Source: a virus (taxonomy: Duplodnaviria; Caudoviricetes). Taken from it: a stretch of 64,000 nt of DNA. Positions 38,156 through 38,272 of this stretch are shown here, piece by piece. The notes under the pieces are model-generated. The model did not search any database and was not told the DNA's origin. It saw only the letters and a list, made by a program, of their open reading frames with translations. The stretch's first letter is position 1, and every line of letters begins with the position of its first letter. The position numbers and the translations under genes were made by a program. The stretch lies in IMG/VR virus record IMGVR_UViG_3300028591_000005, positions 81,978-145,977 of that record; one strand, 5' to 3'.

Positions 38156-38272
38156 TCGGGTGAGTAGGATTCGAACCTACGTCTCGGCGTCCCCATCGCT
38201 TATCTAAATAATTGCTGTACGTATCACAAGCATGATACAAGATTACGCGTTCTACCATTAAACTATCACCCG
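38156..38272 (-). tRNA. tRNA-Pro(GGG)-like with 46-nt ACAGCAA module inserted in the anticodon stem
   Basis: CGGGTGA/TCACCCG, A73, canonical D and T arms; removing 38200-38245 gives CGGCG-AT-GGG-GA-CGCCG. Confidence 0.7.

What the first reader, a model, noticed from the sequence alone, without database searches (positions are those of the whole stretch)
38156..38272. Circularly permuted ACAGCAA module grafted into the anticodon stem of tRNA-Pro(GGG)
Seen: 46 nt (38200-38245) are inserted between positions 28 and 29; removing them gives the perfect stem CGGCG/CGCCG around loop AT-GGG-GA. Within the insert the module order is reversed relative to the free copies: 3' strand GTATCA-TG first, linker CTT, then G-TGATAC-GT-ACAGCAA. 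The free ends are closed by a hairpin loop and the whole tRNA becomes the cargo. Inference: permutation that preserves the stem and flanking bases implies recognition of a 3D RNA motif, tethering a tRNA to the neighbouring protein.
Basis: partly seen in the sequence, partly recalled or inferred. Interest (0 to 1): 0.8.

Follow-up and report, generated by a model that had tools for sequence, protein, structure and literature searches.

The report
Handle-tagged tRNA for Ro60-like protein
A phage tRNA-Pro look-alike carries, spliced into its anticodon stem, a small RNA "handle" that in hundreds of phages always sits next to the gene of a ring-shaped Ro60-like protein, so it is most likely a partner RNA that hangs a tRNA shape on that protein rather than an ordinary tRNA.

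Summary
The 117-nt RNA (38272-38156, minus strand) is a tRNA by Rfam. Removing exactly 46 nt between positions 28 and 29 restores a perfect tRNA-Pro(GGG) cloverleaf. The insert holds a 6-bp clamp hairpin followed by GU-ACAGCAA, a circular permutation of the two free "stem + UUACAGCAA" RNAs just downstream.

The design is not a one-off. Across 85 related phage loci I found 73 different tRNA-like bodies carrying this hairpin handle. The clamp helix covaries, and 40 bodies have the same split anticodon stem, mostly at 28/29. The neighbouring 488-aa DUF2828/vWA protein is predicted with high confidence to fold like Ro60. Searching with the handle alone finds that gene 226-892 nt downstream in 73 of 74 informative loci.

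The nearest relatives keep the tRNA body but not the Pro anticodon. Free handles often display bare anticodon stem-loops. I therefore read this RNA as a Y-RNA-like partner (compare YrlA), not a decoder. Splicing into a working tRNA-Pro is not excluded.

The handle matches Dictyostelium Class I RNAs. I found no paper describing the pairing. This scan has noted the same system on much other DNA (164 earlier notes).

The parts
38156..38272 (-). Handle-tagged tRNA-Pro(GGG)-like RNA, 117 nt (C1-G72, A73, G18G19, TΨC loop, no encoded CCA)
   Evidence: Rfam tRNA 49 bits; parsed by eye and by script
38200..38245 (-). 46-nt insert between tRNA positions 28 and 29, carrying the hairpin form of the handle
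   Evidence: Exact deletion gives a perfect 71-nt cloverleaf; same insertion point in 8 other distinct split stems
38221..38238 (-). Clamp hairpin P2: GUAUCA / loop UGCUUG / UGAUAC
   Evidence: covariation in 31 stem-blind homologues: 89.8% paired vs 27-50% when slid; 0/500 shuffles reach the observed value
38212..38218 (-). Invariant single-stranded ACAGCAA of the handle, preceded by GU
38240..38243 (-). 5' strand (AUCU) of short basal helix P1 of the insert
   Evidence: Pairs with AGAU at 38202-38205; base-pair probability about 0.5; a comparable AAAG/CUUU in L002 seen by eye; weak
38202..38205 (-). 3' strand (AGAU) of basal helix P1
38185..38199 (-). GCG-AUGGGGA-CGCCG: distal part of the split anticodon arm with anticodon GGG (38192-38194); C27 G28 lie at 38246-38247
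38082..38151 (-). Free (end-paired) handle RNA displaying an anticodon stem-loop of tRNA-Lys(UUU) type (AAAAUA-CUUUUAA-UAUUUU, 38103-38121)
   Evidence: second-best Class I model hit of the genome, 23.3 bits
37989..38073 (-). Second free handle RNA; its 3' strand and UG end 18 nt before the start codon, abutting the ribosome-binding site
   Evidence: best Class I model hit of the whole genome, 27 bits
36504..37970 (-). Gene of the 488-aa DUF2828 + DUF7788/vWA protein (complete MIDAS motif DxSxS..T..D), predicted Ro60-like ring
   Evidence: Pfam; PHROG 850 'RNA-binding protein'; AlphaFold pLDDT 92.4; Foldseek hits at E <= 0.001 are all Ro60 entries
38871..38899 (-). Consensus sigma-70-type promoter (TTGACA-17-TATAAT, 12/12) that could drive tRNA-Leu, tRNA-Gly, tRNA-Tyr, this RNA, the two free handles and the gene as one unit
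   Evidence: no terminator-like site between it and the gene on this strand; consensus match only

Best explanation
The 117-nt RNA is a tRNA-derived partner RNA of the phage's Ro60-like (DUF2828/vWA) protein. It belongs to a large family in which one small handle is fused to tRNA parts. The handle is a 6-bp clamp helix flanked by G and UG, followed by two nucleotides and single-stranded ACAGCAA.

Here the handle is in its closed, hairpin topology. It branches from the 5' strand of the anticodon stem between positions 28 and 29. The whole tRNA body, with an intact elbow and a displayed anticodon stem-loop, is therefore the cargo.

Proposed working (inferred, not shown):
1. The RNA is cut out of the tRNA-cluster transcript by ordinary tRNA end-processing.
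2. The ring protein grips the handle, as Ro60 grips the Y RNA stem.
3. The exposed tRNA shape or anticodon loop engages a tRNA-directed factor, for example an anticodon nuclease, a modification enzyme or a repair enzyme, as decoy, sensor or recruiter.
4. The last free handle, which abuts the ribosome-binding site, could let the protein regulate its own translation.

My odds:
- Member of the handle-RNA family linked to DUF2828: about 0.9.
- Bound by that protein: about 0.7.
- Acts unspliced as a mimic rather than as a decoder: about 0.6.
For: **Shown here**
- The handle and its permutation are real.
- The clamp covaries.
- 417 structured handles lie on the gene strand against 16 on the other strand, piled up in the 1.5 kb upstream of the gene in 85 loci.
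- 73 unique tRNA-like bodies carry a handle.
- 40 of them have a 5/5 split anticodon stem plus canonical loop. These give 12 different stem sequences, 8 of them at 28/29.
- Searching with the handle alone recovers the gene on the same strand 226-892 nt downstream in 73/80 loci. Six of the 7 misses lack the downstream sequence.
- The protein folds like Ro60: pLDDT 92.4, and the Foldseek hits at E <= 0.001 are all Ro60 entries, TM 0.46-0.62 over the full length.

**Against decoding**
- Orthologues in L008 and L094 (80% protein identity) share the acceptor stem and A73 but have loops CAGCAAA and CAGGUAA.
- One orthologous body carries GGU, GGA or GAU in different phages.
- 11 unique bodies show anticodon GCU (Ser) on a short-variable-loop body that lacks the long arm every bacterial tRNA-Ser has (the tRNA-Ser rule is established knowledge).
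- 9 unique bodies (36 instances) have no anticodon arm at all.
- 33 of 74 free handles display a bare canonical anticodon stem-loop, against 1.2 in shuffles. These cannot decode.
- The unspliced RNA is not predicted to form the split stem unaided: -20.8 against -29.8 kcal/mol.
Against: - No binding, expression or processing data exist.
- The window's copy is internally consistent as a real tRNA-Pro. It has C1-G72, A73, G35 G36, G37 and a perfect cloverleaf after exact excision. The identity rules are established knowledge for E. coli tRNA-Pro.
- The phage's commonest proline codon is CCU (584 of 979). GGG would read it, and the phage's only other tRNA-Pro is UGG.
- The same genome has other interrupted tRNAs and an RNA repair kit, according to earlier notes that I did not test. 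A cut-and-rejoin route therefore cannot be dismissed.
- Conservation of split-stem complementarity fits splicing as well as it fits a three-way junction.
- The protein has no sequence-level match to Ro60.
Confidence: 0.6

Rival explanations
1. It is a genuine tRNA-Pro(GGG) gene interrupted by a non-self-splicing intron at the non-canonical position 28/29. An endonuclease cuts out the 46 nt and a phage or host RNA ligase rejoins the halves. This gives a decoder for the phage's dominant CCU codon and, as by-product or second product, a free hairpin-handle RNA for the Ro60-like protein. The protein bound to the handle might even mark or organise the cut sites.
For: - Exact excision gives a perfect cloverleaf with tRNA-Pro identity elements.
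- CCU makes up 60% of Pro codons, and no other GGG or AGG tRNA is in the genome.
- Split-stem complementarity and canonical loops are kept in 40 unique homologues at a nearly fixed position.
- Earlier notes report other interrupted tRNAs and an RNA ligase kit in this genome (not tested by me).
Against: - I saw no bulge-helix-bulge at the junctions. They sit at the base of a short helix, and in the minimum-energy fold they lie inside a continuous helix.
- The insert is far too small for a group I intron, and no Rfam ribozyme or intron family hits it.
- The nearest orthologues lack a usable anticodon loop.
- Family members exist with anticodon and body mismatched, or with no anticodon arm.
- Free handles show that anticodon-loop display occurs without any tRNA body.
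- No uninterrupted copy of this anticodon arm was found in viral contigs.
Confidence: 0.25
2. The handle is a small mobile or recombining RNA/DNA cassette that has landed in a tRNA gene and inactivated it. On this reading the 117-nt locus is a decaying pseudo-tRNA with no function of its own, and only the free handles matter.
For: - Handles occur in many unrelated tRNA bodies and at several positions: 26/27 to 30/31, in the loop, or replacing the arm.
- The anticodon loop has decayed in the closest relatives.
Against: - Acceptor, D and T arms stay intact, with compensatory differences, between window, L008 and L094.
- The split stem remains 5/5 paired in 44 unique sequences, 40 of them with a canonical loop.
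- tRNA-like bodies with handles number about two per locus (152 in 85 loci). This is unlike decay.
- No target-site duplication or terminal repeats flank the insert.
Confidence: 0.08
3. The three ACAGCAA elements are only cis-regulatory sites (a leader) for translation or stability of the DUF2828 mRNA, and the copy inside the tRNA is an accident of the compact tRNA cluster.
For: - The last free handle ends 18 nt before the start codon and touches the ribosome-binding site.
- 148 structured handles lie in the last 250 nt before the gene in the loci.
- No terminator-like site separates the RNAs from the gene.
Against: - In L021 and L027 the best handle hits lie 0.9-1.9 kb downstream of the gene, and handle-tRNAs follow the gene in L004, L005 and L010.
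- Handles are embedded in complete tRNA-like bodies that would be released by tRNA processing.
- Cargo shows selected anticodon-stem-loop structure. That is unexpected for a mere operator.
Confidence: 0.07

Closest known systems
Ro60 (Rsr) with Y RNAs, especially the tRNA-mimicking YrlA of bacteria and phages (Chen et al. 2014, PMC4201824; bioRxiv 10.1101/312249; Thermus phage phiLo Ro60 with Yrl1/Yrl2, PMC12135203)
   Same: - A ring-shaped HEAT + vWA protein, at predicted-fold level.
- It is encoded next to several small RNA genes.
- Each RNA combines a protein-binding stem module with a variable part, and in YrlA that part is a tRNA-like domain.
- There is a phage precedent for such a particle acting on host RNA enzymes (PMC12135203).
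   Different: - The protein is Pfam DUF2828/DUF7788, not TROVE, with 12-16% identity and no sequence-level hit to any solved Ro60.
- The handle is a 6-bp clamp plus single-stranded ACAGCAA. It is not the bulged Y RNA stem or the CGAA motif used to find Yrl1/2.
- The Rfam YrlA model scores only 21.8-26.4 bits against a 69-bit cut-off.
- The topology is inverted. In YrlA the RNA ends form the Ro-binding stem and the tRNA-like acceptor is closed. Here the acceptor holds the ends, the handle is the closed hairpin, and a separate anticodon stem-loop is kept.
Class I RNAs of Dictyostelia (Rfam RF01414; Kjellin et al. 2021, PMC7919456)
   Same: - Same design as the free handles: 6-bp stem joining the 5' and 3' ends, conserved 5' G, 3' (C)UG(U), and the motif CCUUACAGCAA next to the 5' strand. 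The phage consensus is G-KGACNC-UU-ACAGCAA, which matches 10 of 11.
- Total length is about 65 nt.
- In 6 of 6 whole phage genomes the best RF01414 hits are the handles beside the DUF2828 gene.
   Different: - Scores are 20-27 bits, below the 41.5-bit gathering score.
- Class I RNAs are eukaryotic and have their own DUSE promoter.
- Their only proven direct binder is an RRM protein, Rnp1A/CIBP.
- The copy in this finding is the permuted form, 9 of 11 motif positions, inside a tRNA. That arrangement is not described for Class I RNAs.
- Whether Dictyostelium's unexplained pull-down protein DDB_G0281243 is a DUF2828 protein could not be established here.
tRNA introns: archaeal bulge-helix-bulge introns at non-canonical positions, bacterial group I introns in anticodon loops, and the 'enigmatic' inserts reported in large phages (cited in earlier notes)
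   Same: A tRNA gene is interrupted by extra sequence whose exact removal restores a cloverleaf. The position lies in the anticodon arm. The same phage has other interrupted tRNAs.
   Different: - No bulge-helix-bulge is seen.
- 46 nt cannot hold a group I core.
- The insert is a conserved protein-gene-linked module that also exists free.
- Relatives carry it on bodies that could not decode.

Membership tests
tRNA (Rfam RF00005) | Covariance-model score above the gathering cut-off | tested here: met
   49 bits vs 29, with the anticodon arm treated as a 59-nt local insertion
tRNA (Rfam RF00005) | Contiguous cloverleaf with a 5-bp anticodon stem and 7-nt loop | tested here: not met
   Only met after deleting 46 nt. 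ARAGORN does not call it. The split stem has base-pair probability of at most 0.05 in the unspliced RNA.
tRNA-Pro identity (E. coli rules: G72, A73, G35, G36; established knowledge) | Identity elements present and conserved in orthologues | tested here: inconclusive
   All are present in the window copy. The anticodon is lost in the two nearest orthologues, which keep C1-G72 and A73. Charging is not testable here.
Ro60 / Y RNA ribonucleoprotein | Protein with HEAT-repeat ring plus vWA/MIDAS domain (Ro60 fold) | tested here: met
   AlphaFold pLDDT 92.4, pTM 0.91. Foldseek: the hits at E <= 0.001 are all Ro60 entries (1yvr, 9nfa, 9kop, 2nvo and others) over 513-561 columns. MIDAS residues are invariant.
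Ro60 / Y RNA ribonucleoprotein | Sequence membership in the TROVE family | tested here: not met
   Pfam gives DUF2828 + DUF7788 + weak vWA and no TROVE. phmmer and profile searches of PDB sequences find no Ro60.
Ro60 / Y RNA ribonucleoprotein | Partner RNA matches a Y RNA model (YrlA RF02553) | tested here: not met
   21.8 bits here and 25.8-26.4 bits in L003/L008, vs a 69-bit gathering score
Ro60 / Y RNA ribonucleoprotein | Small RNA genes encoded beside the protein gene | tested here: met
Ro60 / Y RNA ribonucleoprotein | Direct protein-RNA binding | not testable with these tools
   Needs EMSA, RIP or a structure
Dictyostelium Class I RNA (RF01414) | Score above the gathering cut-off | tested here: not met
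   Free copies score 27.0 and 23.3 bits vs 41.5. They are nevertheless the top two hits of the 146-kb genome. The same pattern holds in 5 further phage genomes.
Dictyostelium Class I RNA (RF01414) | 6-bp stem joining 5' and 3' ends, 5' G, 3' UG(U), and the 11-nt motif next to the 5' strand | tested here: met
   Met by the two free copies (10/11 of the motif). The tRNA-embedded copy has the same parts in permuted order and 9/11 of the motif, so as a linear RNA it does not fit the model.
Dictyostelium Class I RNA (RF01414) | Common protein partner (a DUF2828 protein binding Class I RNAs) | tested here: inconclusive
   DDB_G0281243, a Class I pull-down protein of unknown function (bioRxiv 10.1101/2020.04.05.026054), could not be identified with the tools
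Spliceable tRNA intron | Bulge-helix-bulge motif at the junctions, or a self-splicing or ribozyme core | tested here: not met
   No BHB in the predicted folds. No Rfam intron or ribozyme hit. The insert is only 46 nt.

The most novel reading that the evidence does not exclude
DUF2828 proteins are a second, widespread branch of Ro60-like rings whose partner RNAs share one topology-independent handle (clamp + ACAGCAA). Phages use the handle to mount whole tRNA bodies or bare anticodon stem-loops on the ring, as decoys or sensors for anticodon-directed host nucleases or modifiers. The handle enters tRNA bodies at a fixed point, 28/29 of the anticodon stem. The 'Dictyostelium-only' Class I RNAs would be the eukaryotic members of this same RNA family. 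That would give Class I RNAs a candidate protein partner and function.
Probability: 0.2. Interest if true: 0.9.

Novelty: new variant of a known kind. Interest (0 to 1): 0.7.

Why it matters
Ro60 and its Y RNAs are a classic but still poorly understood RNA-surveillance particle. Here a distant structural relative of Ro60 comes with a different, very simple RNA handle.

- **The handle is modular.** Evolution uses it in either circular order, free or spliced into a tRNA at a fixed point. The design shows directly which parts the protein is likely to recognise: clamp, G/UG flanks and ACAGCAA. It also shows which part is cargo.
- **The hypothesis is testable.** Phages may load tRNA shapes and anticodon loops onto a ring protein. 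This bears on the arms race around tRNA-cleaving defence systems and on phage tRNA biology.
- **There is a eukaryotic lead.** The match to Dictyostelium Class I RNAs offers a concrete lead for a 20-year-old orphan RNA class.
- **There is a practical consequence.** Such genes are missed or mis-called by tRNA finders. ARAGORN skipped this one and called a relative 'tRNA-SeC'.

Tried and rejected
- **Chance.** Rejected. Only three structured handles exist in 146 kb and all sit beside the gene. The pattern recurs in 85 loci.
- **Known RNA family for the insert.** Nothing in Rfam reaches a cut-off. There are only weak YrlA, SpF41 and Class I hits.
- **Group I or BHB intron, or ribozyme.** No support.
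- **Empty-site test.** A search of viral contigs for the uninterrupted anticodon arm found only two unrelated GC-rich coding matches.
- **Orthologue search by pattern.** This found only L008's contig. P0002's contig gave L094.
- **Sequence-level link of the protein to Ro60.** None. Only the fold links them.
- **Defence-system libraries.** No PADLOC hit.
- **Identity of Dictyostelium DDB_G0281243.** Unresolved. The only paper in the library naming it is the bioRxiv version of Kjellin et al.. Avesson 2011 is not held. The supplements do not mention it.
- **Longer relatives.** The search for longer relatives returned only two fusions.
- **Literature search for the motif or for DUF2828 as an RNA-binding family.** Nothing relevant.
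- **The 118-nt spacer 38373-38490.** It holds a CUGAUGAG string, but its fold is unremarkable (z -0.55) and there is no hammerhead hit.

Full report
**Setting**

The window is the right-hand 64 kb of a complete 146-kb virus record with terminal repeats, 34% G+C. A tRNA cluster lies on the minus strand. The finding sits in a run that reads, 5' to 3' on the minus strand:
- a perfect sigma-70-type promoter match (38899-38871);
- tRNA-Leu(UAA) with an insert, then tRNA-Gly(UCC);
- a 118-nt unassigned spacer, then tRNA-Tyr;
- the 117-nt RNA of this finding;
- two free 'stem + UUACAGCAA' elements;
- 18 nt later, a 488-codon ORF (37970-36504).

**Observation**

- The RNA 38272-38156 scores 49 bits with Rfam's tRNA model, although ARAGORN skips it.
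- After G26-C27-G28 come 46 extra nucleotides (38245-38200), then G29-C30-G31, the loop AUGGGGA and CGCCG. The boundary cannot slide.
- Deleting the 46 nt gives a 71-nt RNA that folds as a perfect cloverleaf (-25.5 kcal/mol). It has C1-G72, A73, G35 G36 and G37, the features expected of a bacterial tRNA-Pro (established knowledge).
- The insert contains GUAUCA-UGCUUG-UGAUAC followed by GU-ACAGCAA.
- The two free copies read G-UGACAC-UU-ACAGCAA...GUGUCA-UG and G-GGACUC-UU-ACAGCAA...GAGUCC-UG.
- In the tRNA copy the 3' strand and its UG come first, a 3-nt linker closes what is the open end in the free copies, and G plus the 5' strand plus ACAGCAA follow. This is a true circular permutation.
- These three are the only structured handles in the whole genome.

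**Is the module real?**

I fetched 84 viral loci and one ENA contig encoding relatives of the ORF.
- ACAGCAA with an adjacent 6-bp helix occurs 417 times on the gene strand and 16 times on the other strand. The sites are concentrated in the 1.5 kb upstream of the gene.
- Both topologies are common: 82 unique hairpin forms and 79 unique end-paired forms.
- For an unbiased covariation test I picked hairpin sites by the anchors UG-NNN-G and ACAGCAA only, ignoring the stem. On that set 89.8% of cells pair, against 27-50% when the partner is slid. There are 42 double-sided changes against 12.3 in shuffles, and 0 of 500 shuffles reach the observed value.
- In end-paired forms found by complementarity alone, G precedes the 5' strand in 90 of 102 and UG follows the 3' strand in 76 of 102. 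The same bases form the ends of the hairpin loop in the closed form.

**Is the tRNA graft a one-off?**

No.
- A simple search for acceptor stem, D arm and T arm around handles found 152 cases, 73 of them unique sequences. Rfam's tRNA model independently calls many of them as 114-131-nt tRNAs.
- Forty unique bodies have exactly the window's design: a 5/5 split anticodon stem and a loop with U33 and a purine at 37. They give 12 different stem sequences, 8 of them split at 28/29 and the rest at 27/28, 29/30 or 30/31.
- Five carry the handle inside the anticodon loop.
- Nine (36 instances) have no anticodon arm at all, the clamp hairpin taking its place.

**The neighbour**

- The ORF product is Pfam DUF2828 + DUF7788 with a weak vWA signal and a complete MIDAS motif. 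PHROGs calls its family 'RNA-binding protein'.
- The family is very large: 6,456 clusters at 50% identity.
- AlphaFold gives pLDDT 92.4 and pTM 0.91. The Foldseek hits against the PDB at E <= 0.001 are all Ro60 entries (Xenopus, human, Deinococcus and Thermus phage phiLo), aligned over the full length at 12-16% identity.
- Sequence searches alone do not find Ro60.
- As a reverse test, I scanned viral contigs with a handle pattern only. This gave 80 loci, 73 of which encode a DUF2828 homologue on the same strand 226-892 nt downstream. Six of the seven others simply end too soon. Many of these loci are related phages from one data set, so the count overstates independence.

**Decoder or mimic?**

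For decoding:
- The window copy is a self-consistent tRNA-Pro.
- CCU is the phage's main proline codon (584 of 979), and its only other tRNA-Pro is UGG.

Against decoding:
- The two closest relatives (80% protein identity, same gene order) keep the acceptor stem, A73 and a 5-bp/7-nt arm, but the loops read CAGCAAA and CAGGUAA, without U33.
- One orthologous body carries GGU, GGA or GAU in different phages.
- Eleven bodies show a Ser anticodon (GCU) on a short-variable-loop body.
- Some bodies lack the arm entirely.
- 33 of 74 free handles display a bare canonical anticodon stem-loop, against 1.2 in shuffles (maximum 4). The commonest are GUU, UUU and GCU. In this window one is a Lys(UUU) loop at 38121-38103. 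Display of anticodon loops is therefore a family trait that needs no decoding.
- The unspliced RNA is not predicted to form the split stem by itself: -20.8 against -29.8 kcal/mol, pair probability at most 0.05. The architecture would need the protein or tertiary contacts, or else splicing.
- By established ribosome structure, a 46-nt branch at 28/29 would clash with the 30S subunit. Decoding would therefore require excision.
- I see no bulge-helix-bulge, group I core or ribozyme.

**Best reading**

This is a Y-RNA-like partner RNA of a Ro60-like phage protein, built from a tRNA-Pro. The handle is grafted as a side branch of the anticodon stem. The closest analogue is YrlA, where a Ro60-binding stem is fused to a tRNA-like domain (PMC4201824), but here the ends and the closed loop are exchanged.

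Shown here:
- the motif;
- the covariation;
- the recurrence;
- the gene linkage;
- the predicted fold.

Inferred:
- binding;
- the three-way junction;
- what the cargo does.

The main rival, at about one in four, is that the insert is cut out and the halves rejoined to give a working tRNA-Pro(GGG).

**Class I RNAs**

Rfam's Dictyostelium Class I model gave a weak hit on a free copy.
- The published description of Class I RNAs fits the phage consensus G-KGACNC-UU-ACAGCAA...-UG. It specifies a 6-bp terminal stem, an invariant 5' G, a 3' CUGU and the motif CCUUACAGCAA beside the 5' strand (PMC7919456; consensus).
- In this genome and five other complete or near-complete phage genomes, the best RF01414 hits of the whole genome are the handles next to the DUF2828 gene. 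They score 20-27 bits, below the 41.5-bit cut-off.
- Class I RNAs were reported as absent outside Dictyostelia.
- One of the four proteins pulled down with a Class I RNA, DDB_G0281243, has unknown function. I could not find out whether it is a DUF2828 protein.

**Prior knowledge**

- I found no paper in the held library that describes DUF2828 as an RNA-binding ring or the ACAGCAA handle in phages. TROVE proteins with tRNA-like partners in jumbo phages are mentioned in PMC7824862. A TROVE-type phage Ro60 with Y-like RNAs has been solved (PMC12135203).
- This scan has already noted the DUF2828-handle system many times on other DNA. A note on this same window lists the three modules. I reached the Class I and Ro60 links independently before reading those notes, and I re-tested the claims I use.
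- This report adds five things:
  - the stem-blind covariation test;
  - the census of handle-tRNA designs and the preferred 28/29 branch point;
  - the orthologue comparison showing that the Pro anticodon is not conserved;
  - the shuffle-controlled enrichment of displayed anticodon stem-loops;
  - the DDB_G0281243 lead.

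Noticed in passing
window 38373-38490 (-): A 118-nt unassigned spacer between tRNA-Gly(UCC) and tRNA-Tyr contains CUGAUGAG. Its 3' end, GCAUUAGCCAGCAUAU, recurs in L008 (about 1092-1107), directly before a free handle. No Rfam hit, and the fold is unremarkable (z -0.55).
   Followed up: partly
window 38491-38562 (-): tRNA-Gly(UCC) is found by Rfam (43.8 bits) but missed by ARAGORN. Its T loop is GCAGAAC rather than TTCRANY.
   Followed up: no
window 38568-38696 (-): tRNA-Leu(UAA) has an insert of about 48 nt in the anticodon loop that lacks ACAGCAA. 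It is a different kind of insert from the one studied here and is already noted by others.
   Followed up: no
window 42270-42343 (-): ARAGORN calls a tRNA with a four-base anticodon (gaaa). Rfam tRNA scores it at 47.3 bits.
   Followed up: no
L001:2560-2680 (+): A handle-tagged tRNA-like body has a displayed loop CUUUAAA, which carries anticodon UUA (ochre-suppressor type). The split is at 27/28.
   Followed up: no
L006:2714-2809 (+): ARAGORN labels a handle-carrying tRNA-like RNA as 'tRNA-SeC (tca)'. The clamp hairpin is mistaken for a long arm, which is a likely source of false selenocysteine tRNA calls in phage annotation.
   Followed up: partly
L094:5454-7479 (+): In the closest ENA relative, a radical-SAM gene and a Thg1-family (tRNA-His guanylyltransferase-like) gene lie 1-3 kb downstream of the DUF2828 gene.
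   Followed up: no
P0271, P0272: Two long proteins fuse DUF2828/DUF7788 to other domains. One is a RecQ-type helicase (1,148 aa) and the other is a PF13597 domain (954 aa). They could be real fusions or gene-calling run-ons.
   Followed up: no
L148:6000-6400 (+): This is the one handle locus with 8.4 kb of downstream sequence and no DUF2828 homologue. It has two handles, the first in a tRNA-like body that seems to lack a D arm.
   Followed up: partly
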